From the human T2T-CHM13v2.0 reference genome, Homo sapiens, in NCBI RefSeq assembly GCF_009914755.1, contig NC_060934.1: a DNA stretch of 64,000 nt; one strand, written 5' to 3'. Positions 11,061-64,000 of the stretch are shown piece by piece. The first letter of the stretch is position 1; each line of letters starts with the position of its first letter. The position numbers and the translations under genes were made by a program. The notes beneath the pieces were generated by a model. The model had not been told where the DNA came from. It did no database searches and saw nothing but the letters and a program-made list of their open reading frames with translations.

Positions 11061-14000
11061 TTATATATATAGAGAGTGATATATATGTATATCACATGTG
11101 ATATATATATATATATCTCCCACAGTTTATCTACTCATGGATTGATGGGCATTTGGGTTGGTTCCATGATTTTGCTGTTGTGAATTGTGCCACTATAAAC
11201 ATGCATGTGCAAGCATCTTTTTCGAATAATGACTTCTTTTCCTCTGGATAGATATTCAGTAGTGGGATTGCTGGATCAAATGGTAGTTCTACTTTTAGTT
11301 CTTTAGTTCTTTAAGGAATCTCCACACTGTTTCTCATAGTGGCTGTACTAGTTTACATTCCCACCGGCAGTGTAGAAGTGTTCCCTGTTCACTGCATCCA
11401 TGCCAACTATCTACTGTTTTTTTATTTTTTTGATTATGGCCATTTTTGAAGGAGCAAGGTGGTACCGCATTGTGGTTTTGATTTGCATTTCCCTGATCAT
11501 TAGTGATGTTGAGCATTTTCTCATATGTTTGTTGGCCATTTGTATATCTTCTTTTGAGAATTGTCTATTCATGTCCTTAGCCCACTTTTTGATGGGATTG
11601 TTTGCTTTTTTCTTACTGATATATCTGAGTTCGTTGTAGATTCTGGATATTAGTCCTTTGTCAGATGTATAGATTGTGAAGATTTTTTCCCACTCTGTGG
11701 GTTGTCTGTTTACTCTGCTGACTGTTCCTTTTGCTGTGCAAAAGCTCTTTAGTTTAGTTAGGTCCCAGCAATTTATCTTTGTTTTTATTGCATTTGCTTT
11801 TGGGTTCCTGGTCATGAAATCCTTGCCTAAGCCAATGTCTAGAAGGGTTTTTCCAATGTTATTTTCTAGAATTTTTATAGTTTCAGGTTTTAGGTTTAAG
11901 TCCTTAATCCATCTTGAGTTGATTTTCATATAAGGTGAGAGATGAGGATCCAGTTTCATTCTCCTACATGTGGCTAGCCAATTATCCTAGCACCATTTGT
12001 TGAAAAGGGTGTCCTTTCCCCACTTTATGTTTTTGCTTGCTTTGTCGAAGATCAGTTGACTGTAAGTATTTGAATTTATTTCTGGGTTCTCTATTCTGTT
12101 CCATTGGTCTATGTGCCTATTTTTATAACAGTACCATGCTGTTTTGGTGACTATGGCCTTATAATATAGTTTGAAATCAGGTAGTGTGATGCCTCCAGAT
12201 TTGTTCTTTTTGCTTAGTCTTGCTTTGGCTATGCGAGCTCTTTTTTGGTTCTGTATGAATTTTAGAATTGTTTTTTCTAATTCCGTAAAGAATGATGGTG
12301 GTATTTTGATGGGGATTGCATTGAATTTGTAGATTGCTTTTGGCAGTATGGTCATTTTCACAATATTGATTTTACCCATCCATAAGCATGGGATGTGTTT
12401 CATTTGTTTGTGTTGTCTGTGATTTCTTTCAATGGTGTTTTGTAGTTTTCCATGCAGAGGTCTTTTGACTCCTTGGTTAGGTATATTCCTAAGTATTTTA
12501 TTTTTCTTTGCAGCTATTGTAAAAGGGGTTGAGTTCTTGATTTGATGCTGTGCTTGGTCGCTGTTGGTGTATAGAAGAGCTACTGATTTGTGTGCATTAA
12601 CCTTATATCCGGAAACTGCTGAATTATCAGTTCCAGGAGCTTTCTGGAGGAGTTCTTGGGGTTTTCAAGGTAAACGATCACATCGTCAGCAAACAGTGAC
12701 AGTCTGACTTCCTCTTTACTGATTTGGATACCCTTTATTTCTTTCTCTTGTCTGATTGCTCTGGCTAGGGCTTCCAGTACTATGTTGAAGAGGAGTAGTG
12801 AGAGTGGGCATCCTTGTCTTGTTCCAGTTCTCAGGGGGAATGCTGTCAACTTCTCCCCATTCAGTATTATGTTGGCTGTGAGTTTGTCATAGATGGCATT
12901 TATTATATTAAAATATGTCCCTTGCATGCCGATTTTGCTGATAGTTTTAATCACAAAGGGATGCTGGATTTTGTGGAATGCTTTTTGTGCAGCTATTGAG
13001 ATGACCATGTGATTTTTGTTTTTAATTCTGTTTATGTGGTGTATCACATTTATTGACTTGTGTGTGTATGTTAAACCATCCCTGTATCCCTGGTATGAAA
13101 CCCACTTGATCATGTTGGATTATCTTTTTGATATGTTGTTGGATTCAGTTAGCTAGCATTTTGTTAAGGACTTTAGCATCAATGTTCATCAAGGATATCA
13201 GTCTGTAGTTTTCTTCTTTGGTTGTCCTCTCCTGGTTTTGGTGTTAGGGTGATGCTGGCTTCATAAAATGAATTAGGGAGGGTTCCTTCTTTCCCTATCT
13301 TGTAGAATAGTGTCAAAAGGACTGATACCAATTCTTCTTTGAATGTCTTGTAGAATTCTGCTGTGAATCTGTCTGGTCCTGGGCTTTTCTTTGTTGGTAA
13401 TTTTTTACTTACCATTTCAGTCTCACTGCTTGTTATTGGTCTGTTCAGGGTATCTAATTCTTCCTGATTTAAACTAGGAGGGTTGTATTTTTCCAGGAAT
13501 TTATCCATCTCTTCTAGGTTTTCTAGTTTATGTGTCTAAAGGTATTCTTAGTAGCCTTGAATGATCTTTTGTATTTAAATGGTGTCGGTTGTAATATCTC
13601 CTGTTTCATTTCTTAGTGAAGTTATTTGGATTTTCTCTCTTCTTGGTTAATCTTGCTAATGGTCTATCAATTTTATTTATCTTTACAAAGAACCAGTTTT
13701 TTGTTTCATTTATCTTTTGTAATTTTTTTGTTTCAATTTCATTTAGTTCTGCTCAGATCTTGGTTATTTCCTTTCTTCTGCTGAGTTTGGGTTTGGTTTG
13801 TTCTTCTTTCTCTAGTTCCTTAGAATGTCAGTTTGTGCTCTCTCAGTCTTTTGATGTAGGCGTTTAGGGCTACGAACTTTCCTCTTAGCACTGCCCTTGC
13901 TATATCCCAGAGGTTTTGATAGGTTGTGTCATTATTGTCATTCAGTTCAAAGAATTTTTTAATTTCCATGTTGATTTCGTTTTTGACCCAATGCTCACTC

Positions 14001-18770: not shown

Positions 18771-19316
18771 TGAACTACCATTAGATCCAACAATCCAACT
18801 CCTGGGTATCTACCCAGAGGAAAATAAGTCATTATATGAAAAAGGTACTTACAGACTCATGTTTATAGCAGCACAATTTGCAATTGCAAAAATATGTAAC
18901 CAGCCCAAATGGCCATCAATCAACGAGTGGATGAAGAAAATGTGGTGTATATATATACACCATGGAATACTACTCAGCCATGAAAAGGAATGAAATAATG
19001 GCATTTGCAGCAGGCTGGATGGAATTAGAGACCATGATTCTAAGTGAAGTAACTCAGGAATGGAAAACCAAACATCATATATTCTCACTCGTAAGTGGGA
19101 GCTAAGCTATGAGGATGCAAAGGCATAAGAAGGATACAATGGACGTTGGGGATTTGGGGAAAGGGTAGGAGGTGGGGATAAAAGACTACACACTGGGTAC
19201 AGTGTGCACCGCTCAGGTGATGGGTGCATCAAATCTCAGAAATCACCGCTAAAGGACTTGTTCATGTAACCAAACACCACCTGTTCCCCAAAAACCTATT
19301 AAGATAAAATAAAATG
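18771..19316 (+). mobile_element. 5'-truncated L1PB 3' fragment inserted into an L2
   Basis: ELPLDPTIQLLGIYPEE...MFIAAQFAIAK; 3'UTR GAAATCACCGCTAAAG...CCAAACACCACCTGTTCCCCAAAAACCTATT; an antisense L2 tail at ~18667-18770 resumes after 19400. Confidence 0.88.
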
Positions 19317-19403
19317 AATTATAATATTCAAAGAATTATATGAGGAAACCTATTAAGATAAAATAAAATGAATTATAATATTCAAAGAATTATATGAGGA
19401 AAC
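19292..19403. repeat. Perfect 54-bp tandem duplication
   Basis: AAACCTATTAAGATAAAATAAAATGAATTATAATATTCAAAGAATTATATGAGG at 19292-19345 and 19346-19399, followed by AAAC. Confidence 0.95.
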
Positions 19404-20125
19404 ATACAATAAACAAATAAACAAAGCAACAAATAAATAAGTATAAATTGTGATCATTGCTGAGAAGGGTGTTGTATTAATGTGGTGGAGTAACAGAATG
19501 ACTGGTGATAATGTACGTTTTCTCTGAGAAGGTGATATTTAATCCAAGTTCTAAAAGATGAAGAACTGGCCATGAGAAGAGTATTAGGGTTCCAGGTGCA
19601 AATGCTCTGAATTTGGAAAGCTCTTACAGGGCTCAAGGAGCAAGAGAGAGGTCAGGATGGCTGGGGTAGCAACCAAGGGAGCATGAGATACAGGCGGAGA
19701 GGAGTCGGAGCATGGAAGGGAAGCTGAGATGTCAGTTGGACATTATGCCATAAACAATGGGGAGCATTTGAATGTTCTTGAGCAGGAGAGTAACACAATC
19801 ACAGTTGTACTTTGGGAAGCTCAATCTAGGCATTTTATAAAATGAAAGAAGCAAAGAAAACCAGACTGAAGGCAGGAAGCCTCACTGAGAAGTCATTGCC
19901 ATCCATGGCTGGGAGTCTGTGAGGGACAGATAGAAGGGGAGTTTTGAGGAAGAATCACGTGATTTGGCCATTGATGGCCCTGGGTGGCCAGGAAATGGGA
20001 GGAGCTGGAGATGTCACCACCCGTGCCTGGTAGAATGGTGGGTCAATGAACAGCCAAGGAAACCACAGGATGAGAGGGCTCTGGGGAAAGATGAAGAATC
20101 TCGATTTGAACATCTGAGTTGAAGC
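19400..20125 (-). mobile_element. L2 LINE fragment
   Basis: TCTCTGAGAAGGTGATATTT..., CAATGGGGAGCATTTGAATGTTCTTGAGCAGGAGAG, AGACTGAAGGCAGGAAG, TTTGAACATCTGAGTTGAAG are antisense L2 blocks. Confidence 0.65.
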
Positions 20126-46620: not shown

Positions 46621-49177
46621 CAGTCCGGACACTCTCCCGGCCACTTGGGCATCCTTGCACAGCTGAAGAGCCTGGACAGTAAGGGGAGGTACCACGCAAG
46701 GGCAGTGATGACAGGGCACAGCATAACCCTGCACCCCCTTACCCAGGCCTCTTTATAGATGCCCAGATTTGGGGCAGAACTGCCTGGCTGACTTTCCTGC
46801 ATCAGTGACATTTGACACCTGACCTGGGAGGTTTTGAAGTGAGGAAAACTGATGACACATTTCTGCACATTCCCACTGTTCAATGCCAGCCGAGAACACT
46901 CTTGAGAAGTACAAGGGGTTTGGCTAAATCTCCTGCCTGGAATGGGACAAGAGCAGGTAAGAGGCAGCCCCCCTGTACACAGAAGCATCGGCAGGCAGGG
47001 TCATACGCATTCCCAGCAGGTTGTGCAGAGGTAGGCTCCTGGGTCAGCGGGAGGAACCCAAACACTGGTGATGACAAGGGCATGCCCAGGCCTTCCTGTG
47101 CACTTCCGAGAGCCAGGGCCTGGAGATGGCAACATGTAAGCCAGGCCATGAAGCACTGAGAAGTCTGTTTAACTAAAGTGGGCAGGGATGCTCAAGGACC
47201 CACCAGGAGATGGAAGGGGCTGCGGTCAAAGGCCCTGACGCTGGAGGTTTTCAGTCTCACCCCCTCCTTTCTGGCAGTAGAGGAATTCTGAGTGTTTCCC
47301 ATCTCTTCCACCTCCTCATTTGCTGCTGTTTTCCAACCCTTACTTTAAATTCCCCACCAACATACACATGCACACACAAACACACAGCTTCTAGAGCCCC
47401 ATCTCCATATATCAAGTGAAAAGAGTGATTTTCATGGGTAAACCTTGTTTCCCAAGGATGCAGCCTGGCCCTTGGTCAATGTGAGGGGAACTTAACCAGC
47501 TCCTCCAAGACTGAGATTTGGCTTCGAGTTCAGCATGGAGCCGGGACCCCCAGGGCTGGTCAGTGAAAGTGAGTGGAGCTGAATACCAACAGGGCTGGGG
47601 TGGAGTGGGTCCAGGGCCCACGCCACAGCCCTGGCTCTTTCCACGCTGCGGTGGCCACCTCAGCCCCAGCCTGTGTCTGGGATGCTGTCGAAGTAGCGAA
47701 GTGCTTCATGCACCAGCATCAGGTGGCCGTGATCAGGCTATGGGTTTAACGCAGCATGAAGATGGGTGGGGAATGGGATCACCTCTCTCTGCCTGCATCC
47801 CCCAGGCCCTGGAGTCTGCTCCACAGAAGGCAGAAGCTGAGTGAGTGAGCTGGGAGGCCCGGGAAGCATATCTCCAGTGCCATTCCCAGTCTGGGCACCA
47901 GCCTCCTCTGCGCCCTGCGGGCTACGGGCCAGCCCCTGGGCTCCAGCCTCCCACGTACGATGCCTATTTGGAAGTGAACCAGGATAGAATTTCTAAGGGT
48001 TGAGCCACCTTCCTGGGATCACTTGCTGAGTCAGATGCTGCCAGAACCACAGAATGTCCCCAAAATTCACAAGACACCCATATCCTTTCTCAGGGCACCG
48101 GCTCATTTATGTGCAGGCTGAAGCTATTTGGTTTGTTCTAAAAAGCGTGGCACCAGCAGCTTCAGTTAAAGAGATCGCAAACTTTGCAGACACAAACAAC
48201 TTGAAAAATAGGTCAAATCCTGTTTTGTACATTCACAGGGCTGCCTTTTCCAGCGTTTCTCCCTAAAATCAAATCAGCAGTGTATGTAAATGAGTTGAGA
48301 GAATTCATTACGTTAATTTATCTAATTTTGGAGGCAAACCTGAAACAAACAGCGCCTCACTTTCTAACACTCAGGCCCTCATAGAATATTGATTCCTGAG
48401 TTTTACTGGCCTTGCACGAAGGCCTTTTTATAGCCCCAAAGGAATGAGATCATCAGTTTCCTCAGGCATACAAATGTCCTGCTCAGAGGCCCTGAGACAG
48501 CATTCTCCAAGGTCATTTCAAGGGATGGCTGGCATGGTAGACCACCCAAAGCTCAGATTTGGGAGTCTATGGGACGTGCATGCAGAAGCACTGTGCCTGG
48601 GGCCACCGATCCCAGCAAGATCAACAGCTGCGAATGGCAAGTGGTCCCAGCAGAGGTGGCGGTGAGGTCCATATTATTTCAGGATCCTGGCAGTGTTCAT
48701 GGTAGTAAGCTGTGGAATTAAGAATATTTCCAGGGCCAAGGCTGCCAGCAACAGAGCTGTGTTCATGGCAGAAAGAAGCCCAGACAAACAGTGATGGCTT
48801 CATCACCTCCTGCCTCTCAGTGGGCCAGTGTGATGTCCTCAGAATGATACATTTCACTGTGAAGAACCCCAAATTCCCATGTGACCCCGGAGCCAGCCGT
48901 TTTAGCAGACTAACCATGATTTTCATCCAGTTTTGTGAACAGTGATTGCCACTGCTGGCCAGTCCCTCAAGGCAGCCAAGTAGGTGCAGGACTGTATTTT
49001 ATATTTGGAAGAACACAAGGAGCTCTGTCTGACCCCAAATGTCTCTTTGCTGCCTGTTGGTAGCTGGGGCCAAGGGTCTCCTGCAGCTAGGATCACAGGC
49101 CTTCAAGATGGGTGCAAGGCAGAGCACACAGAGCTCAGGGCACGCGGTGGACTGCTTTGCAGTCCTTGCTCTGCCTC

Positions 49178-52100
49178 GGAATACCGTGTGGAATATTGTG
49201 TACAATACCGTGTGGAATGCCATGTGGAATATTGTGTGGAATACCGTGTGAAATACCATGTGGAATATTTTGTGGGATACCGTGTGGAATATTGTACGGA
49301 ATACCATGTGGAATAATGTGTGGAATAATGTGTGGAATACTGTGTGGATACCATGTGGAATAACGTGTGGAATACGGTGTGCAACACAGTGTGGAATACC
49401 ATGTGGGATATTGCATGGAATACCGTGTGGAATACAGTGTGGAACATTGTGTGGAATACTGTGAGGAATATAGTGTGGAATACTGTGTGGAATATTGTGT
49501 GGAATACCATGCGGAACACTGTGTGGAATAACGTGGGGAATATTGTGTGGGATACCATGTGGAATAACGTGTAGAATATGGCGTGGAACACAGTGTGGAA
49601 TACCACGTGGAACATTGTGTGGAATACTGTGTGGAATACAGTGTGGAATACTTTGTGGAATACCGTGTGGAGTATTGTGTGGAATACCATGTGGAATATT
49701 CTTTGGAACACTGTCTGGAATACCATGTGGAATACCCAGTGGAATATTGTGTGAAATACTGTGCAGAATATCGTGTGGAATACCGTGTGGAATACTGAGT
49801 GGAATACCATGTGGAATACCGTATGGAATACCATGTGCAGTACCGTGTGGAATACTGTGTGGAATACCATGTGAAATATCGTGTGGAATACTGTGTGGAA
49901 TAACGTGGAATACTGTATGGAATACCGTGTGGAATACCATGTGGAATATTGGGTGGAATACCGTGTGGAATACCAGGTGGAATGCCGTGTGGAATACCAT
50001 GTGGGATACCATATGAAATATCGTATGGAATACCCTGTGAAATATTGTGTGGAATACCACATGGAATATTGTGTGGAATACATTATGGAATATTGTGTGG
50101 AATACCATCTGGAATACCATGTCGAATACCATGTGGAATATTGTGTGGAATATCATGTGGAATATTGAATGGAATACCGGGGGGAATACCATGTGGAATA
50201 CCGTGTGGAATACCATGTGGAATATCATGTGGAATATTGAATGGAATGCCGGGGGGAATACCATGTGGAATACTGTGTGGAATATTGTGTGGAATACTGT
50301 GAGGAATACCACGTGGAATACTGTGTAAAATGGTGTGTGGAATACCATGTGAAATACCGTGTGGAATGCCGTGTGGTATATTGTGTGGAATATGGTGTGG
50401 AACACAGTGTGGAATACCATGTGGAATAGAGTGTGGAATACCATGTGGAATATTGTGTGGAATATCATGTGGAATATTGTGTGGATTACCGTGTGGAATA
50501 GAGTGTAGAATACCATGTGGAATATTGTGTAGAATAACATCTGGAATACGTGTGGAATACCCTGTGGAATATTGTGTCAAATACCATGTGGAATAATGTG
50601 TGGAATAATGTGTGGAATATGGAATATGGAGTGGAATACCGTGTGGAATACCGTATGGAATACTGTGTGGAATATTCTGAGGAATACCATGTGGAATAAT
50701 GTGTGGAATATTGTGTGGAATACAGTGTGGAATATTGTGTGGAATACCATGTGGAATACTGTGTGGAATACCGTGTGGAATATCGTGTGGAATACCTTGT
50801 GGAATAGTGAGTGGAATACCATGTGGAATACTGTGAATAATATATTATTGAATACTGTATGGAATATTGTGTGGAATACCATGTGGAATATTGTGTGGAA
50901 TTCTGCATGGAATATCGTGTGGAACACCATGTGGAATATTGTGTGGGATACTGTGTGGAATAATGTGTGGAATATTGTGTGGAACACCATGTGGAATACC
51001 GTGTGGAATATTGTGTGGAATACTATTTGGAATACGGTGTGAAATATTGTGTGGAATACCTTGTGGAATACCATGTGGAATACCATATGGGATACTGTGT
51101 GGAATACCATGTGGAATATTGGGTGGAATACCATGTGGAATATTGTGTGGAATACCGTGTGGAATACTGTGTGGAATACCATGTGGAATACTGTGAATAA
51201 TATATTATTGAATACTGTATGGAATATTGTGTGGAATACAGTGTGGAATACTGTGTGGAATATTGTGTGGAATTCTGCATGGAATATTGTGTGGAATACC
51301 GTGTGGAATATTGTGTGGGATACTGTGTGGAATAACGTGTGGAATATTGTGTGGAACACCATGTGGAATATCGTGTGGAATATTGTGTGGAATACCATTT
51401 GGAATACGGTGTGAAATATTGTGTGGAATACCTTGTGGAATACCATGTGGAATACCATATGGGATACTGTGTGGAATACCGTGTGGAATATTGGGTGGAA
51501 TACCATGTGGAATACTGTGTGGAATATTTTGTGGAATACCATGTGGCAACCTAGTGAAATATTGTGTAAGATAACGTGTGGAATAACGTGTAAAATATTG
51601 TGTGGAATACCATGTGGGATACTGTGTGAAATACTGTGAGGAATATCATATGGAATATTGTGTGGGATACATTGTACAATATTGTGTGGAATACCGCCTG
51701 GAAAACTGTGTGGAATATTATGTGGAATACTGTGTGGAATATTGTGTAAAATACCATTTGGAATACCATGGAATACTCTGTGGAATATTGTGTGGAATAC
51801 CGTGTGGAATACTGCGTGGAATATTCTGTGGAATACCACGTGGAATGCCATGTGGAATATCATGTGGAATATTTTGTGGAATATTTTGTGTAATACCATG
51901 TGGAACACCATGTGGAATATTGTGTGGAATACCATGTGGAAACCTAGTGAAATATTGTGTAAGATAACATGTGGAATAACGTGTAAAATATTGTGTGGAA
52001 TACTGTGTGGGATACTGTGTGAAATACCATGAGGAATATTGTATGGAATATTGTGTGGAATACTGTGTGGAATATTGTGTGGAATACTCTGTGGAATACC

Positions 52101-53005
52101 AGCTGGAATACTGTGTGGAATATTATGTGGAATACCATGTGGAATATTGTATGGAATATTATGTGGAATACTGGATGGAATACCATGTGGAATTCTGTCA
52201 GAATACAGTGTAGAACATTGTGTGGAATACCGTGTGGAATATTGTGTGGGACACTGTGTGAAATACCATATGGAATATTGTATGGAATATTGTGTGGAAT
52301 ACCGTGTGGAATGCCATGTGGAATATTGTGTGGAATACTATATGGAATACTGTGTGGAATACCAGCTGGAATACTGTGTGGAATATTATGTGGAATACCA
52401 TGTGAAATATTGTGTGGAATATTGTGTAGAATACCATTTGGAATATTGTGTGGAATACCATGAGGAATACCATGTGGAATACTGTGTAAAGTATTGTGTG
52501 GAATACCATGTAGAATACTGTGTGGAATATTCTGTGGAATACCGTGTGGGATATAGTGTGAAATTCCGTGTGGAATACCATGTGAAATATTGTGTGGAAT
52601 ATTGTGTGGCACACAGTGTGGAATATTGTGTGGAATACCATATGCAATACCATATGAAATATTGTGTGGCATACAGCATGGAATATTGTGTGGAATACCA
52701 TGTGGGATATAGTGTGAAATTCCATGTGGAATACCATGTGAAATATTGTGTGGAATATTGTGTGGCATACAGCATGAAATATTGTGTGGAATACCATATG
52801 GAATACCATATGAAATATTGTGTGGAATATTGTGTGGCATACAGCTTGGAATATTGTGTGGAATACCGTGTGAAATACCATGTAAAATGTTGTGTGGAAT
52901 ATTGTGTGGAATACTGTGTGGAATATTGTGTGGAGTACTGTGTGGAATACCATGGGGAATACCATGTGGTATTATTATCTGGAATGTGGTAATATTATGT
53001 GGAAT
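49178..53005 (+). repeat. 12-bp minisatellite, left arm (GGAATAYYRTGT)n, ~3.8 kb
   Basis: Continuous variants GGAATACCATGT / GGAATACCGTGT / GGAATACTGTGT / GGAATATTGTGT; 4-residue periodicity in all six ORF frames. Confidence 0.97.
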
Positions 53006-55120
53006 AATCCACACGGTATTCCACATGGTATTCCAAACAATATTCCACATGGTATTTCACAATATCCCCCATAATATTCCACACAGTATTCCACACGGTA
53101 TTCACCACAATATTCCAAACAGTATTCTACAAAATATTCCACATGGTATTCCACATGGTATTCCACACGGTATTCCACAAGGTATTTCACACAATATTCC
53201 ACACGGTATTCCACACAAAATTCCACACAGTATTCCTCATGGTATTGCACACGGAATTCCACATGGTATTCCACACAATATTCCACACGATATTCCACAA
53301 GGTATTTCACATGGTATCCCACACGTTATTCCACACAATATTCCACACGGTATTCCACACAGTATTTCACATGGTTTCCCACATGGTATTCTATGCTGTA
53401 TTCCACATGGAATTCCACACAGTATTCCACACGGTATTCCACACGATATTCCACACGGTGTTCCACGCGGTATTCCACACAATATTCCACACGATATTGC
53501 ATACAATATTCCACACGGTATTCCACACGATTTTCAACACGGTATTCCACATGTTATTTCACACAATATTTCACATGGTATTCCACACGGTATTCCATGT
53601 GGTATTCCACACAGTATTTCACATGGAATTGAACACAATACTCCACATAATATTCCACATGGTATTTCACACAATATTCCACATGGTATTCCACACAATA
53701 TTCCACACAGTATTCCACAGTGTATTCCACACAGAATTCCACGTGATATTCCTCATGGTATTCCACACAATATTCCACTTGGCATTCCACATGGTATTCC
53801 ACACAATATTCCACACATTATTCCACACAGTATTTCACACAGTTTCCCACACAGTATTCTACGCTGTATTCCACACGGAATTCCACACAGTATTCCACAC
53901 GATATTCCACATGGTGTTCCACACGGTATTCCACAGAATATTCCACATGGTATTCCACACAATATTTCACATGGTATTCCACATGGTATTTCACAGAACA
54001 TTCCACACGGTATTCCACATGGTATTTCACAGAACATTCCACATGGTATTCCACAAAATATTCCACATGGTATTCCACACGGTATTCCACACGGTATTGC
54101 GCACGGTATTTCACACAGTATTGCACACAATATTCCACACAGTATTCCACGCAATATTCCACATGGTATTCCACACGGTATTTCACACAACATTCCACAT
54201 GGTATTCCACATGGTATTCAAAACAATATTCCACACAATATTCCAAACGGTATTCCACATGGTATTCCACAAGTTATTTCACACAATATTCTAAGTGGTA
54301 TTCCACACAACATTCCACACGGTATTCCACATGATATTCCACATGGAATTCCAGAGGGAAATCCACACAGTGTTCCATATGGTATTCCACACAATAATCC
54401 ACATGATATTCAACACGGTATTCCACACAACATTTCACATGGTATTCCACACGGTATTCCGCACAATATTCCACAGGATATTCAACACGGTATTTCACGT
54501 GGTATTCCACACAATATTTCACATGGTATTCCACACAATATTTCACATGGTATTCCACATGGTATTCCATGTGGTATTCCGCACAGTATTTCACAAGGAA
54601 TTCCACACAATATTCCACATGGTATTCCACACAATATTCCACATGCTATTCCACACAATATTCCACACAGTATTCCACAGTGTATTCCACACAATATTCC
54701 ACATGGAGTTCCACATGGAATTCCACATGGTATTCCTCATGGTATTCTACACAATATTCCACATGGCATTCCACACAATATTCCACACAGTATTTCACAC
54801 GGTTTCCCACACGGTATTCTATGCTGTATTCCACATGGAATTCCATACAGTATTCCACACGGTATTCTACACAATATTCCACATGGTGTTCCACACGGTA
54901 TTCCACATGGTATTCCACACAGTATTCCACATGGCATTCCACACAATATTCCACACGTTATTCCACATGGTATTCCACACGGTATTCCACGTGGTATTCC
55001 ACACAATATTCCACATGGTATTGCACCCAGCATTCCACACAGTATTTAACACAATATTTTACACGGTATTCCGCACCATATTCCACACGGTATTTTGCAC
55101 AATATTCCACATGGTATTTG
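53006..55120 (-). repeat. 12-bp minisatellite, right arm in inverted orientation (ACAYRRTATTCC)n, ~2.1 kb
   Basis: Units TATTCCACATGG / TATTCCACACGG / TATTCCACACAG / TATTCCACACAA are the reverse complement of the left-arm units. Confidence 0.97.
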
Positions 55121-55159
55121 ACGAGGTATGCCCACTGACTCTGCACAGGTCTTGAATAT

Positions 55160-55575
55160 AGTAGTGGCCTGGATTATCCTGCAGTGATCATTCACTCCCG
55201 TTCCTCCACCCCCGCTCAGGCCCATGCACTTTCCTGCCCCATTTATATTGGGCTTGGCCATGTGACTTACTCTGGTCGGTGAGGTTTTGGCAGAAGTGAT
55301 AGGGTGCCAGTTCTGAGCTTAGGCCTTAACTGGCAAGGCCTGATTTCACTCACACCTTGGGAAGCTCTGACCCCCCCACCTTGAGGGAAGCATGCCCAGT
55401 TGGCCACTGACCCTTCATCCCAGACCCAGAACAAGCCCAGCATGCTGCCGAAACAGTTGTCCAGCCCAGCACTGTGGTTGGCCTGCAGACCCTCCATCTG
55501 GAGGATGAAGACTTGCAGCTGGAGGCCACTCAGGTGGGGGATGTCTGGGTTTGCAGCATATTGAAGAGATAGGTG
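55160..55575 (+). mobile_element. MLT1H-like LTR
   Basis: GGGCTTGGCCATGTGACTT...GCAGAAGTGATAGGGTGCCAGTTCTGAGCTTAGGCCTTAA. Confidence 0.65.
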
Positions 55576-56081
55576 GGTGCCCTGGGTTATGTGTCCACCC
55601 TCAGCTAATATCTCCATTTCACCTCCAGCACTGCTCAGCTCACAGCACCTGCCTGGCATCTCTCCACGGTGTGACCTTATCCACTGTCCCAACCCTACCC
55701 CAGCTCCTCCCTGGATCCTAGACCCAGTGCTCTGCCCCTTTCTGCTCCTCCAGCTCTGACCCTACACATTCCAGCCTCATCCCCACTCAATTCTTCACAC
55801 CAGGTACAATGCAGACCTGGTTACAGACCAAAGACCCTCAGCAGAGAGGAGGGCAGGAACCCCCAGTGGGCAGGCGCCACACTTTGCATGCTCTTTCCTG
55901 AATCTTGGGAGTGGGAGGGTCAGGATTTGAACCTAGGGCCTTCTGACCACAGAATCAGAGCTTGTTTCACTAGGCGTTGTGGCAGCTGAAGTTCACATTC
56001 CTCTGAACAAGTAGACTTTCACAGCAATACAGAACCCTTGTGTTGGAAGGGAAGTAGACAGTTCCCTAGTCCAATAAATAG

Positions 56082-56150
56082 TAGGTGGATCATATGAAAT
56101 AGCCATTTTTGTAGATTAAACCAAATATTGGCAATTGCATGGGCTTACCA
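56082..56150. mobile_element. MADE2-like mariner MITE
   Basis: TAGGTGGATCATATGAAATAGCCATTTTTGTAG...AAATATTGGCAATTGCATGG; short imperfect palindromic element. Confidence 0.55.
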
Positions 56151-58254
56151 GATTCACTGCTGGTCAGACAATCAAACCCAATCCTACCTTAACTGGCCAA
56201 CATTCAGTTTGTATTTTCACTGTGTGTTTCACGAAGATTTCAAGAACTCTCAGATGCCCTGCCAGATGCTAAAATTACCTACGCACAGGACATATTCCTA
56301 GGATGCCTGTAGTAACCCTACCATCAGAAGAAAAATGGTATCACTTTGAACTACAGTCAGTTCACTTTCAGGAGCATGGATTAGATGCCAACCCTCTGCT
56401 CAGCCCTGTAAATAAACAAACAAACAAAGTAATAACAAACACACAACGTCTTCATGATCTCAGCTTTCTTCACTAATTGTTTCATAATGTGTCCCAGAAT
56501 TCAGGCCGAGTTTGAATTCCATCAAAGATACTACAATCCATTGTCTCAGATTTCGAAGCTGTTCTTTTTTCCCTTCTTAAGTATCAAGAGAGTCGTCAGT
56601 AACCACTCTCTTCTGTTGGGTTTTTAAAGACCATCCCCACCCAAATTCCTTCCTGCTGGCCCACCCTCAGGTCTGTGGATTTTCACACTGGCTGGAGGCC
56701 CTAAAGACCCTCCACTCCACCCTAGTATTGCCCAGCGCCATCCCCTTTTCACCCTGAGATGTCTTTATTAAGGAAGGAAGAGACGGGGTGCCCACCACCA
56801 TTGATGGATCGCGTGTTGTGTGCCCAGCACCGAGTTGGCCCTGGCCGTGTAGTTATTTCCAAGGATTGTCACACCACCCTGGGAGGGACAGAGGTGCTGT
56901 TGGTCTGGGTCTGTTGGACCCCAAGCCTATCCCCATCTTTACACAGAACTCAATGTCTACCCAGAACTTGACAGTTACACAGACCTCGATGGCTCTTCTC
57001 CAAATGCACTTTGGTCTCTTGAGTCTAACAAGAAGCTTCCCCTCCCTGCTAAACCAGCTTCCTGCCCCGAGCTAGAAATAGGTGGGAGCAGAATAGCTGA
57101 GTTGCCAGGAGCAGCCTGTTCCTAAGGGGCCATGGTTGGAAAAGTCACACGACCAGAGCTTCTCTCCTGCTCCGACTTCCTCCAGGTCCTTCCTGCCTTC
57201 CTTCCCACGCCAGGAACACAGCATCCACAATTAAACTGCCAGAAATAGACCGGCTTGGACCAGGGTGACAAGATGTGCTTCAAGCCTTCTGAACCCCTGC
57301 ACAGCCTGGCTCACCCACAGGGAACTAGGACGACTAATTATGGTCAGCTCAGACAAAAGGCAGAGGATGAGATGAGCCAGGTGCTTGGCCAGAAATGAGT
57401 TTCTGTCCCCGATATCTCTCCCATCCCTGCTTCCCCTCCAGACATGCTGGCACTCTGTGTCTTTGCACCAGGTCCACCTCAGCGCCCCAGGCTTCCCGTG
57501 GCTTCAGCAGTACTGAGAGTCAGAGTCTGGCTGCCCAATACCTGAGCCGTTCTGTGCTCCCTTGAAGCCCCTGTTTACAGCATCCCACCACGGGACCTGC
57601 CGATCCTGGTAGCACACACCACGACGCTCCCTCCGGAGGGACCGGCCCAGGTCAGACAGTTGGAAAGAGACTCCAGCGATGAGGCTGGAGAGGTGAACAG
57701 GGGCTGGCCACTGAGACCCTGTCACACCAGCCAAAGCTGATGGCCCAAACCACGCAACGTGTGCTTCTGAAAGACTTCCCTGGCTGCAGAGGGGAGGGGT
57801 TTGGGGTGGAAGGTGAGAGGCAGGGGCCAAGCCGGAGGCTGCATGGGGTGTGGCAGGGCCATGCTGGGCTCCCACGGCCACTCTGGACAGCCTAGGTGTC
57901 AGTCACAGGAGAGGCCCCCCGCTCCAGGCACGCTCCCCCAGCCCTCTGTCCACCAGGCCTTTCCGCAGCCCTGGGTGGGTGGCAGCCACAAGGCAGGTGG
58001 CCCTGCCTACTGCAGCGCTCCTGAGGCAGGCCCACTGCCAGGCCCATTTGCGGGGGGCCCAGCACCCCCAAAGCCAAGCACTTAGCTCTGGGGGACCTGG
58101 AGCTATGGAAGCACAGTGACAGAGTGGGTGGGGGCAAGAGGAGAGGGATAGGAAAGAGTAGTGTACAGGGAGACCCATACCCTATAAATGACAGAGGCAG
58201 CACACGGGCAGGTGTTGGGACTTCTTGCAGTTTCTCCACGGTGTATCTTGTTAC

Positions 58255-62270: not shown

Positions 62271-62739
62271 TGAGTGTTGCTAGGTGAGCATGGAAATTGG
62301 ATGGGTTGAGGGACAGTTTGTACAGCTGGGGCAGCATTTGGAGAACCTTCCCTGCCCTGCTTTGGACCTACTCTCTGGTGACCGCAGTCCTTGTGCAGCC
62401 AACATCGGCGTCTTTCTCTCGCCGGCCTATCCCAGGGGAGCCAGCTTCTCCGGCCAAGGCCCTTCTGGCCTCAGCTGGGACACACCTTGCCTTTCTACAG
62501 GTAGTCAGCTCTGGCCACCTTGACTCATTAGTCAGGCTTGGCCCTTCCTCCAGCTCCGAGTCATCCCTTCAGGTAGTCCTCCTGCAGAGACTCGCTCTGT
62601 TGTGTTGACCTTCGTCATTCTGTTCCCAAAATGTGATGGCATTTAGCTGAATCAGCTCCAAATTCCAGGACAGCTTTTTCAAGTTCCCTATACACTGAAG
62701 AGGGAAAAGATCTCAGACATTCCTTCATTTTCATTCAAA

Positions 62740-63010
62740 ATTAAATTGGTAAGATTCATCTCTATCTTTATTGTCTGCTGTTATTCAGTTTTACTGCTCT
62801 ATAACATCCCAATGTATAAACATATCACAATGTATTCATCTATTTCTTTCTGTTGATGAGATTTGAGCTATTTTCAATGTTTTGATTCTAGGAACAACAC
62901 TGCTAGGAACAGCCTCATACACACCTAGGACAGGAATTGCCGGGTTTCCTCCCAGCAGGGCTTGTGAAGGCACAAATTTGCAAGCCATGCCAAACTGTTT
63001 TCCAAAATAG
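62740..63010 (-). mobile_element. Old L1M fragment
   Basis: TATTCATCTATTTC...GTTGATGAGATTTGAGC...GGAATTGCCGGGT...ATGCCAAACTGTTTTCCAAA; ORF 62836 contains NPAIPVLGVY. Confidence 0.65.
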
Positions 63011-63337
63011 CAATAAAATTTTGAGACAAAAAATCCAAAAAGATTATACAAACTCTGTACTATCTTCTCAATTTTTCTGTAAACCTAATATTGTTCTTTT
63101 AAAAACTTATTTTTAAAAACTTTATAGCATAATGCCCTTTTTCAAAGTTAAAAATGATGAAAAGTAACAGTCTTTTTCAGGACTGCATTGAGATGTGATC
63201 AAATGGATGGCAAGGAAACCATCAACAGGAGTCTGTTCCCTTGGGTGAGGCAAGACCGCGTGCTCAGGCACTGTCAGTGCTCCAGCCCTCTTGCAGGATG
63301 AACAAACACTCATTGGTGCTCATTAGAGTGAAATAAA

Positions 63338-63572
63338 CAGAGGGAGGGAGGGAGAGAAGGAGGGAGGGAGGGAGGGAAGAAAGGAGAGAGGGAGGGGAGG
63401 GGAGGGAGAAAGGAAGGAAAGGAAAAAAGAAGAGAAGGAAGGAAGGGAGGGAGGGAGGGAGGGAGGGAGGGAGGAAGGAAGGAGCAAGGGGGAAGGGAGG
63501 GAGAGAGAGGGGGAAGGGAGGGAGAGAGGGAGGGAGGGAGGGAGGAAGGAAAGAGGAAAGGGAAAAAGAAGA
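63338..63572. repeat. Polypurine (GGGA/GGAA)n low-complexity tract
   Basis: ~235 bp of G/A with a single C. Confidence 0.95.
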
Positions 63573-63650
63573 GTGTGTGTGCACTTGCATCTGCGCACTC
63601 GTGTGTGTGCGTGTGTGGGTGTGTGTGTGTGTACGTGAGCACATGTGTGT
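63573..63650. repeat. Imperfect (TG)n tract
   Basis: GTGTGTGTGCAC...GTGTGTGTGCGTGTGTGGGTGTGTGTGTGTGTAC. Confidence 0.85.
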
Positions 63651-64000
63651 ATTTTTACTTCCCAGGTCCTTGCCCCGGTACCTGCACAGGACCCCACTCT
63701 CAGGGCCAAGATGCGGCTTGTCCCAGCCAGCCGACTGCAGCCCGGAGCCCTGGCCTGAGCTCCCAGTGGAGTCCCTGCTCCCACATCGCCGCCCACCAGA
63801 ATACACAGTGTCCTCACTGGGACACGTGGCTCTGATCTTGTCCCCTTCCCGAACCTGTGTCTTCCTGACCTGCTTCCATCCGGGCCTACTCATCTCTCAC
63901 CTCCACTATCGTTATCACCTCCCGCTACTACCCCTGCTGCCGGTCTCCTGCCTCCAGCTACCTTCTTTCTGAGTCCTGAGTCTGACCACATCACACCCCT

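What the first reader, a model, noticed from the sequence alone, without database searches (positions are those of the whole stretch)
49178..55120. Giant asymmetric fold-back built from a 12-bp minisatellite
Seen: ~5.9 kb of one 12-mer family, GGAATA(C/T)(C/T)(G/A)TGT. About 3.8 kb (~320 units) lies on the + strand, followed directly by ~2.1 kb (~175 units) in reverse complement, all within ordinary MIR/MLT-rich DNA. Known: minisatellites are normally unidirectional, and long inverted repeats can extrude cruciforms, stall replication forks and give dsRNA if transcribed. Inference: every unit can pair with every inverted unit, so the arms could fold in many 12-bp registers (a sliding hairpin). 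This makes it a candidate fragile or length-polymorphic site, or a source of long dsRNA for ADAR/Dicer/MDA5. I do not recognise it as a named satellite family.
Basis: partly seen in the sequence, partly recalled or inferred. Interest (0 to 1): 0.85.

Follow-up and report, generated by a model that had tools for sequence, protein, structure and literature searches.

The report
Old inverted 12-bp minisatellite, 10q26
A one-of-a-kind 5.9-kb stretch of human chromosome 10 is built from a 12-base unit repeated about 316 times forwards and then 176 times backwards; it is real and can fold back on itself when single-stranded, but the units are old and only about 75-80% alike, so it looks like a quiet relic rather than a dangerous perfect palindrome.

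Summary
TRF finds 316.6 units of GGAATACTGTGT at 49178-52962 and 175.9 units in reverse complement at 53003-55118. A 43-bp scrambled junction joins them, and GC skew flips there. In the whole T2T genome the array is single-locus. The flanks are unrelated to each other.

The arms are not mirror copies. The mirror register scores like any other, and unit-to-unit identity is about 0.75 within and between arms. That argues against a fold-back assembly chimera and against a young palindrome.

Both arms share the same four unit classes, the same linked variants and the same avoidance of TTG-TTG neighbours. So one already diversified array was partly inverted, or duplicated in inverted form. Recent turnover is minimal.

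Single strands fold back strongly (z -39 to -51), while pieces within one arm do not. Cruciform extrusion from duplex costs about 0.65 kcal/mol per bp.

Fragility, polymorphism and dsRNA output remain untested. No transcript is annotated and Rfam finds nothing. Six literature searches found no description of the locus. Verdict: a real curiosity, a new member of a known kind, of modest interest.

The parts
49178..52967 (+). Left arm: about 316 units of the 12-bp repeat (consensus GGAATACCGTGT / GGAATACTGTGT) reading on the + strand
   Evidence: TRF, (49178-52962, 316.6 copies). The last clean unit lies at 52956-52967. Segmentation gives 304 of 315 units at exactly 12 bp.
52968..53010 (.). Scrambled 43-bp junction made of partial units in alternating orientation. 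It includes a 20-bp motif repeated 2.1 times, and the predicted 26-nt hairpin loop at 52977-53002.
   Evidence: Sequence. TRF row 52964-53005. Fold of 52930-53079: stem 52930-52976 pairs with 53003-53048, z -6.13.
53003..55118 (-). Right arm: about 176 units of the same 12-bp repeat reading on the - strand
   Evidence: TRF, (53003-55111 at period 12, 175.9 copies; 53008-55118 at periods 24/36/60). All listed - strand pattern hits start at 53011 or later. 174 of 175 units are exactly 12 bp.
50881..51528 (+). The only sizeable recent internal duplication: 50881-51156 is repeated 372 bp (31 units) downstream at 96.0% identity
   Evidence: 276 bp, shift 372, identity 0.96; best 15-unit block 0.978 at shift 31.

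Best explanation
This is a single-locus, old and degenerate minisatellite on human 10q26.13 (T2T chr10:125,103,178-125,109,118). A pre-existing 12-bp array had already diversified. Its distal part was then inverted, or copied in inverted orientation, by a strand switch inside the array. Since then both arms have decayed by point mutation, chiefly CpG decay at unit positions 7-9, with very little unit turnover.

Shown:
- the two-arm architecture;
- its uniqueness in this genome;
- flanks that are unrelated to each other;
- the absence of mirror symmetry between the arms;
- a unit 'grammar' shared by the two arms;
- strong fold-back of single strands in silico.

Inferred:
- The inversion mechanism. 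The unit core AATATT / GGAATA..TATTCC is itself nearly self-complementary, which would favour template switching, and the junction looks like serial switching.
- Old age.
- Selective neutrality.

How it most likely behaves:
- In duplex chromatin it stays B-form, because about 20-25% mismatches make cruciform growth costly.
- When long single strands are exposed (resection, stalled lagging strand, R-loop) or if it is transcribed, the arms can anneal in any of more than 100 registers into an imperfect hairpin.
- That makes it a conditional fold-back hazard or dsRNA source, not a constitutive one.
For: Architecture.

Single locus:
- A 36-mer with up to 2 mismatches gives 30 of 30 hits inside the array, with 0 hits for the reversed control.
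- A 24-mer with up to 1 mismatch gives 241 hits. Of the 100 listed, 99 are in the array and 1 is on chr3; 141 were not listed.
- BLAST of 927 nt gives 10 of 12 matches in the array. The other two are a 65% match to a different 12-bp array on chr1 and a 67-nt match on chr6.

Inversion confined to the array: 5 kb of left flank against 5 kb of right flank gives a best E of 0.073 over 25 nt, and the array has no match elsewhere in the window.

Not a mirror copy: the mirror register ranks 97 of 312, 97 of 308, 162 of 300, 229 of 284, 131 of 252 and 104 of 188 for the inner 4 to 128 units. Mean unit identity is L-L 0.742, R-R 0.764 and R-L 0.751.

One diversified ancestor (unit types):
- The same four classes at positions 7-9 occur in both arms: TTG 25/22%, CCA 24/30%, CTG 14/13%, CCG 10/18%.
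- T7 and T8 are linked in both arms (Fisher p 2.6e-20 and 3.1e-15).
- TTG-TTG neighbours are depleted in both arms (7 against 18.8 expected; 1 against 8.6 expected).
- The top four exact unit types are the same in both arms.
- About 60% of the units of each arm have an exact type found in the other arm.

Little turnover:
- Identical neighbouring units number 4 of 315 (shuffles 13.6 +/- 3.2) and 2 of 175 (shuffles 7.1 +/- 2.4).
- Only one duplication of more than 133 bp was found: 276 bp at 96%.
- Match to consensus at the nine stable positions is about 0.92.

Fold-back of 1000 nt across the centre:
- DNA: -328.9 against -137.4 kcal/mol for shuffles, z -51.
- RNA + strand: -588.2, z -41.5.
- RNA - strand: -588.3, z -39.2.
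- Intra-arm 150-nt controls: z -0.58, +0.13, -2.15 and -2.10. The central 150 nt: z -6.13.

Cruciform cost is 0.62-0.71 kcal/mol per bp, against a flat 36.3 kcal/mol for a perfect control.

Yeast benchmark for divergent inverted repeats: PMC10164571, passages seen.
Against: - No second haplotype, ape orthologue, read set, RNA-seq or breakage map could be consulted. Age, fixation, polymorphism, transcription and neutrality are therefore inferences.
- Shared unit classes could partly reflect parallel CpG decay (CCG to CCA or CTG) or gene conversion between the arms, rather than common ancestry.
- An inversion whose outer breakpoint falls exactly at the array edge is a coincidence that the 'inversion' version must accept. 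The 'inverted duplication / template switch' version avoids it but cannot be told apart here.
- The arms are about seven times longer than the Alu pairs of the yeast benchmark and can pair in many registers, so the benchmark may understate their reactivity.
Confidence: 0.7

Rival explanations
1. Constitutive fragile palindrome. The two arms extrude a cruciform or hairpin in normal duplex DNA, stall forks and break, as PATRRs and perfect long palindromes do.
For: The single-strand fold-back is very strong. The spacer is short, about 26-43 nt. There are hundreds of alternative registers. The arms meet the '>75% over >100 bp, <30 kb apart' screen that Ait Saada et al. used for inverted repeats that become unstable in single-stranded DNA.
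Against: Complementarity is only 75-80% in every register, and the longest exact complementary run is 44 nt. Extrusion cost grows by 0.62-0.71 kcal/mol per bp. That is about 6.5-7.5 kcal/mol per helical turn, roughly what full unconstrained supercoiling of -0.06 could repay (my estimate, from a recalled elastic constant) and more than chromatin normally offers. In wild-type yeast, 75% homology lowered rearrangements about 1087-fold, and lengthening the spacer from 12 to 100 bp lowered recombination about 300-fold. The sequence itself shows long-term stasis.
Confidence: 0.1
2. Source of long hairpin RNA. The locus is transcribed across both arms and yields imperfect dsRNA of about 2 kb that is edited by ADAR, sensed by MDA5/PKR or diced into small RNAs.
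For: Both RNA strands fold to about -588 kcal/mol per 1000 nt (z -41.5 and -39.2). Many of the mismatches are transitions, which G-U pairs partly absorb.
Against: No gene or transcript is annotated in the 64-kb window (hub gene table); the nearest lncRNA ends about 25 kb before the window. No Rfam family matches 47000-57500 at gathering score. No expression data could be consulted.
Confidence: 0.1
3. Assembly artefact. The inverted arm is a fold-back chimera (a missed adapter or a strand-switch read), or a wrongly oriented piece of a unidirectional array.
For: Inverted tandem arrays are hard to assemble. Hairpin-forming repeats bias long-read sequencing (abstract of bioRxiv 10.64898/2026.07.13.738322).
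Against: A fold-back chimera would be a position-for-position reverse complement, but the mirror register is unexceptional. The arms differ in length (3.8 against 2.1 kb) and in unit composition (CCG 10% against 18%). The right arm runs into unique flank that is unrelated to the left flank. At 5.9 kb the array is shorter than typical HiFi reads (recalled, not tested).
Confidence: 0.03
4. Two independent arrays. A short ancestral inverted pair of units, or the nearly self-complementary unit itself, seeded two arrays that each expanded outward on its own. No inversion of an existing array took place.
For: This explains without coincidence why both arms end exactly at unique flanks. The unit core is nearly palindromic (sequence).
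Against: Both arms share the same four unit classes, the same T7-T8 linkage, the same depletion of TTG-TTG neighbours and many rarer exact unit types. Two monomorphic seeds expanding separately are unlikely to arrive at all of that.
Confidence: 0.1
5. Seeded from a retroviral integrase fragment. The coding sequence for 'HGIPHSIA' in a dispersed ERV family is itself two imperfect 12-mers that match the unit.
For: Off-locus 24-mer hits with 1-2 mismatches make up 17 of the 100 rows listed. Thirteen of them were fetched, and 11 of those 13 belong to one dispersed family. One of the 11 was examined further: its ORF is an integrase core domain (Pfam rve, E 2.7e-15). The - strand of the array reads (HGIP)n in one frame (my reading of the unit).
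Against: The array flanks show no similarity to these loci at DNA level (no hit at E <= 0.01). At protein level the best E is 0.22 and lies far from the array; the nearest hit to the array is 12 aa at E 4.9.
Confidence: 0.04

Closest known systems
Ordinary minisatellites / VNTRs
   Same: Head-to-tail units of 12 bp, several kb long, at a single locus in non-coding DNA on distal 10q.
   Different: It has two arms of opposite polarity. The units are strongly diverged (about 0.75 identity), and identical neighbours are fewer than chance predicts, unlike actively slipping arrays. Length polymorphism, the defining 'V' of VNTR, was not testable.
Satellite arrays with internal inversions (for example the HSATII array at 16q11.2 with 'a large inversion', Warburton et al. 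2008, PMC2588610, figure legend seen; 'macro-dyad symmetries' of Tribolium satellites, PMC13081366, search listing only)
   Same: A tandem array whose polarity switches within the array, giving array-scale dyad symmetry.
   Different: Those are large, multi-locus (peri)centromeric satellites. This is one euchromatic 5.9-kb minisatellite found nowhere else in the genome.
Divergent inverted repeats such as inverted Alu pairs (Ait Saada et al. 2023, PMC10164571, passages seen)
   Same: Arms about 75-80% complementary with a short spacer. Expected to be quiet in duplex DNA but able to anneal when long single-stranded DNA is exposed.
   Different: The arms are 2.1 and 3.8 kb of internally repetitive sequence, so pairing is possible in more than 100 registers rather than one. 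No experiment has been done on this sequence.
Palindromic AT-rich repeats (PATRR11/17/22) and perfect long palindromes (recalled from general knowledge; no paper read here)
   Same: An inverted repeat with a small centre that could form a hairpin or cruciform.
   Different: PATRRs are a few hundred bp, very AT-rich and nearly perfect. This array has 36-46% G+C, 20-25% mismatches, and a cost of extrusion that grows with length.

Membership tests
Minisatellite / VNTR | Tandem head-to-tail units of roughly 10-100 bp | tested here: met
   period 12, with 316.6 and 175.9 copies.
Minisatellite / VNTR | Copy number varies between individuals | not testable with these tools
   Only one haplotype (the window's assembly) is available. 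Internal evidence points to low recent turnover.
Named dispersed satellite family | The same unit forms arrays at several loci | tested here: not met
   All strong matches fall in chr10:125,103,178-125,109,118. The chr1 array has a different unit (AGTATCACACAC; 65% identity). The tool warns that DNA search skips simple repeats, so absence elsewhere is not absolute.
Cruciform-prone palindrome (PATRR-like) | Near-perfect arm-to-arm complementarity | tested here: not met
   Complementarity is 75-80% in all registers, and the longest exact run is 44 nt.
Cruciform-prone palindrome (PATRR-like) | Very short or absent spacer | tested here: inconclusive
   The junction is 43 bp and the predicted loop 26 nt. 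This is longer than the <15 bp limit cited as debated in PMC11995269 and shorter than 100 bp.
Cruciform-prone palindrome (PATRR-like) | Extrusion is roughly isoenergetic once nucleated | tested here: not met
   the cost rises from 70.8 through 142.8 and 271.5 to 619.5 kcal/mol for 101, 201, 401 and 1001 bp. The perfect control stays at 36.3 kcal/mol for every length.
Divergent long inverted repeat (screen of Ait Saada et al.: >75% match, >100 bp, <30 kb apart) | Arms pass those three thresholds | tested here: met
   arms of 919-930 nt at 78-80% complementarity, 1.5-2.6 kb apart. Thresholds are quoted.
Fold-back assembly chimera | The inverted arm is a position-for-position reverse complement of the adjoining arm | tested here: not met
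   the mirror register ranks in the middle of all registers at every span from 4 to 128 units.
Known structured RNA family (Rfam) | Match at gathering score | tested here: not met
   0 matches in 47000-57500 on both strands.

The most novel reading that the evidence does not exclude
The locus is a natural 'sliding hairpin': a non-Alu, single-copy source of about 2 kb of imperfect dsRNA. In DNA it would be a multi-register fold-back that becomes a hotspot for hairpin-capped breaks or inverted duplications whenever the region is resected or replication-stressed. It would then act as a built-in sensor or substrate for ADAR/MDA5 or for structure-specific nucleases. Its persistence despite that hazard would imply either tolerance through divergence or some use.
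Probability: 0.08. Interest if true: 0.7.

Novelty: new member of a known kind. Interest (0 to 1): 0.3.

Why it matters
If the reading is right, this locus is a clean natural example of what becomes of a tandem array after an internal inversion. The arms drift apart to about 75-80% identity, a level at which yeast experiments say duplex DNA tolerates inverted repeats, and the array then stops turning over.

It is also a convenient single-copy test case for three things: multi-register hairpins in resected or replicating DNA, the handling of inverted tandem repeats by long-read pipelines, and the blind spot of inverted-repeat annotation that tolerates few mismatches. An annotator of that kind would presumably report such a locus as many short arms rather than as one kilobase-scale fold-back. 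This is my inference; the passages of PMC11995269 that I saw give only the arm and loop limits (arms >=6 bp, loop <=100 bp).

It carries no evidence of gene-level function.

Tried and rejected
1. Mirror-symmetric palindrome. Ungapped diagonals were confounded by indels. A unit-level test found no privileged register.

2. Flanks as part of the inverted repeat. Nothing significant was found.

3. ERV-integrase origin. Off-locus motif hits are ERV integrase fragments, but the flanks show no ERV trace, so the idea is left as an unsupported lead.

4. Related arrays elsewhere. chr1:228.53 Mb holds 73.5 copies of AGTATCACACAC in one orientation, and chr6:44.35 Mb holds 5 copies of TCAACACAGTAT. They share only the ACACAGTAT core and are not the same family.

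5. Coding potential. 38 stop-free frames of at least 100 aa overlap 49000-55300, the longest 778 aa. I take these as a by-product of a unit that has no stop in any frame. No gene is annotated there, and I did not pursue it.

6. Intrinsic hairpins within one arm. None was found (z -0.58 to -2.15).

7. Self-BLAST for internal duplications returned no rows, probably because of the settings. A sliding-identity scan replaced it.

8. Rfam: nothing.

10. Literature.
- Six unit 12-mers as text: 9 papers, all unrelated by title and abstract start, mostly with a single occurrence.
- Inverted / minisatellite / palindrome / VNTR: 113 papers, 20 listed.
- Tandem repeat / inverted / opposite orientation / VNTR / long-read / hairpin: 57 papers, 20 listed.
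- CHST15 / VNTR / tandem repeat / 10q26.13: 6 papers. The only 10q26.13 array there is DMBT1.
- Minisatellite / head-to-head / inverted / array / human: 13 papers.
- Inverted Alu repeats and related terms: 21 papers, 12 listed.
None describes this locus. Supplementary VNTR or inverted-repeat tables were not opened and could list it. The genome-wide inverted-duplicate catalogue of PMC5398296 allows arms up to 10,000 nt and may contain it unnamed.


Full report
**Observation**

TRF on 47000-57500 reports a period-12 array at 49178-52962: 316.6 copies, 73% matches, no indels, consensus GGAATACTGTGT. A second period-12 array lies at 53003-55111 with 175.9 copies. Its consensus, AATATTCCACAC, is the reverse complement of the same unit; TRF also calls it at periods 24, 36 and 60 over 53008-55118.

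GC skew is +0.31 to +0.59 across the first arm and -0.33 to -0.49 across the second, switching near 53000. G+C is 36-46%.

Every listed + hit lies at or below 52967 and every listed - hit at or above 53011 (5 rows not shown).

One correction is needed. The arms do not abut. They are joined by 43 bp (52968-53010) of partial units in alternating orientation, including a 20-bp motif repeated 2.1 times.

**Uniqueness**

The window's own genome, the T2T human assembly, could be searched.
- A three-unit 36-mer with up to 2 mismatches hit 30 places, all inside chr10:125,103,477-125,108,964. There were 17 forward and 13 reverse hits, and the reversed-pattern control gave 0.
- The degenerate two-unit 24-mer with up to 1 mismatch hit 241 places. 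Of the 100 listed, one was off-locus, on chr3.
- BLAST of 927 nt of the left arm gave 12 matches. Ten were in the array at 79-80% identity, on both strands. The other two were a 65% match on chr1 and a 67-nt match on chr6.
- Those two are small unidirectional arrays of other 12-mers (AGTATCACACAC x73.5; TCAACACAGTAT x5).

The tool warns that it skips simple repeats, so 'unique' means that no comparable array was found, not proof that none exists.

**What the two arms are to each other**

The 5 kb on either side are unrelated in both orientations (best E 0.073 over 25 nt). The inversion is therefore confined to the array.

I cut both arms into units. 304 of 315 units and 174 of 175 units are exactly 12 bp. 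I then compared them unit by unit.
- Mean identity is 0.742 within the left arm, 0.764 within the right arm and 0.751 between the arms.
- The mirror register, where unit k from the centre on one side is matched with unit k on the other, is unexceptional at every span. It ranks 97 of 312 for the inner 4 units, then 97/308, 162/300, 229/284, 131/252 and 104/188 for up to 128 units.

So the right arm is not a position-for-position copy of the left. That excludes a recent palindrome, and it also excludes the usual fold-back sequencing chimera.

**Common origin of the arms**

The arms nevertheless share a 'grammar'.
- The same four classes occur at unit positions 7-9, at similar frequencies: TTG 25/22%, CCA 24/30%, CTG 14/13%, CCG 10/18%.
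- T7 and T8 are tightly linked in both arms (Fisher p 2.6e-20 and 3.1e-15).
- TTG units avoid each other in both arms (7 against 18.8 expected; 1 against 8.6 expected).
- The top four exact unit types are identical.
- About 60% of the units in each arm have an exact type that is present in the other arm.

CCA and CTG are the two CpG-decay products of CCG and could arise in parallel. The linked TT class and the neighbour rule are better explained by descent from one array that had already diversified.

**Turnover**

- Identical neighbouring units are rarer than in shuffled arrays: 4 of 315 against 13.6 +/- 3.2, and 2 of 175 against 7.1 +/- 2.4.
- Identity does not fall with distance between units.
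- The only sizeable internal duplication is 276 bp (50881-51156, repeated 372 bp downstream) at 96% identity. The next longest are 133 bp or less at 92-94%.
- At the nine stable positions the units match the consensus at about 0.92.

I infer a long period of point-mutation decay without slippage or unequal exchange. I did not convert this into years, because mutation in tandem arrays need not follow the genome-wide rate.

**Fold-back potential**

- One search finds 1388 inverted pairs. The 25 longest have arms of 919-930 nt at 78-80% complementarity, at many different offsets. This confirms the many-register idea.
- Exact complementary runs are short. The longest is 44 nt, and 412 of 2095 24-mers and 21 of 2083 36-mers of the right arm have an exact complement in the left arm.
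- 1000 nt centred on the junction fold to -328.9 kcal/mol as DNA, against -137.4 +/- 3.75 for shuffles (z -51).
- As RNA they fold to -588.2 on the + strand (z -41.5) and -588.3 on the - strand (z -39.2).
- Controls within a single arm (four 150-nt pieces) give z -0.58, +0.13, -2.15 and -2.10. The central 150 nt give z -6.13, with a 26-nt loop at 52977-53002.

The structure therefore comes from pairing between the arms, not from the unit itself.

**Cruciform from duplex DNA**

With DNA parameters I compared two hairpins with the perfect duplex.
- The cost is 70.8, 142.8, 271.5 and 619.5 kcal/mol for 101, 201, 401 and 1001 bp. That is 0.62-0.71 kcal/mol per bp.
- A perfect palindrome built from the same left-arm units and the same loop costs a constant 36.3 kcal/mol.
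- Per helical turn, the real sequence costs about 6.5-7.5 kcal/mol. By my estimate, from a recalled elastic constant, this is about what fully unconstrained supercoiling of -0.06 could repay, and more than chromatin usually offers.

Experimental benchmark (Ait Saada et al. 2023, PMC10164571, passages seen):
- In wild-type yeast, lowering Alu inverted-repeat homology from 100% to 94, 86 and 75% lowers rearrangement rates about 15-, 58- and 1087-fold. At 65% there is no significant increase over a strain without the repeat.
- Lengthening the spacer from 12 to 100 bp lowers recombination about 300-fold.
- In long resected single-stranded DNA, 75% homology costs only 23-fold, and spacers of up to 30 kb are tolerated.

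By those numbers this locus should be quiet in duplex DNA and reactive only when long single strands are exposed. Its longer arms and many registers may make it more reactive than an Alu pair; that is not tested.

**Origin of the unit**

At 2-3 mismatches the 24-mer also hits dispersed sites (854 hits against 62 for the reversed control; 17 of the 100 listed are off-locus). I fetched 13 of them.
- Eleven belong to one dispersed family, 65-92% identical over up to 826 bp.
- One of these, L018, was examined further. Its open frame reads '...HGIPHSIASDQGTHF...' and matches the Pfam integrase core domain (rve, E 2.7e-15).

The integrase codons for HGIPHSIA happen to form two imperfect copies of the 12-mer, which would be an attractive seed. 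But the array's flanks show no similarity to these elements at DNA level (no hit at E <= 0.01) or at protein level (best E 0.22, far from the array). I keep this only as a lead.

**Other checks**

- No Rfam family matches 47000-57500.
- Thirty-eight stop-free frames of at least 100 aa overlap the region. This follows from a unit without stops, and no gene is annotated there.
- The hub's table lists no transcript in the window.

**Comparison with what is known**

Polarity switches inside tandem arrays are known for large satellites. One example is an HSATII array at 16q11.2 with 'a large inversion' (Warburton 2008, PMC2588610, legend seen). Another is the 'macro-dyad symmetries' of Tribolium satellites (PMC13081366, listing only).

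Genome-wide non-B annotation of the T2T genomes uses arms of at least 6 bp and loops of at most 100 bp (PMC11995269). I infer that an annotator tolerating few mismatches would report this locus as many short inverted repeats rather than as one kilobase-scale fold-back. The passages I saw do not state the mismatch rule.

Six literature searches found no description of this locus. Supplementary tables were not opened.

I file it as a new member of a known kind: a tandem array with an internal inversion, at minisatellite scale and at a single locus.

**Verdict**

The 'fragile / polymorphic / dsRNA' part is weakened by the 20-25% mismatch and the signs of stasis, and it could not be tested directly here.

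The best explanation, at confidence 0.7, is an old single-locus minisatellite that was partly inverted, or copied in inverted form, by a strand switch inside the array. It is now decaying neutrally and can fold back only when it is single-stranded or transcribed.

Interest is 0.3. The boldest reading still open, a working sliding-hairpin dsRNA source or a conditional break hotspot, has a probability of about 0.08.

Noticed in passing
L011-L021 (for example L018:141-494 +), fetched from chr3, 6, 8, 9, 11, 12, 15 and 1 of the window's genome: A dispersed endogenous-retrovirus family whose integrase core (Pfam rve, E 2.7e-15) carries '...HGIPHSIASDQGTHF...'. The codons for HGIPHSIA form two imperfect copies of the minisatellite's 12-mer, so one frame of the array's - strand reads (HGIP)n.
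   Followed up: partly
L009:309-1248 (chr1:228,527,467-228,528,406 of the same genome): Another 12-bp minisatellite, AGTATCACACAC x73.5, with 36/72/108-bp higher-order periods and a single orientation. It is 65% identical to the chr10 array over 546 nt and shares the core ACACAGTAT.
   Followed up: partly
window 19292-19421: An AT-rich 54-bp unit repeated 2.1 times at 100% identity (2.4 times at 92%), which looks like a very recent small tandem duplication.
   Followed up: no
window 63340-63551: A purine-rich (GAGG/GGAA)n tract of about 210 bp, a candidate mirror-repeat or triplex former. It lies inside the RefSeq 'enhancer' 62649-63854 named in the hub's table.
   Followed up: no
window 49178-55118: The hub's list of the longest repeat-masked stretches in NCBI's file tops out at 1.1 kb (11464-12596) and does not include this 5.9-kb array. 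The array therefore appears to be unmasked there, even though it is the largest repeat in the window.
   Followed up: no
window 49178-52967: Units carrying a CpG thin out along the left arm, from 7-9 per 25 units at the outer end (49178-50374) to 1-3 per 25 near the junction (51878-52967). The right arm shows no such gradient.
   Followed up: no
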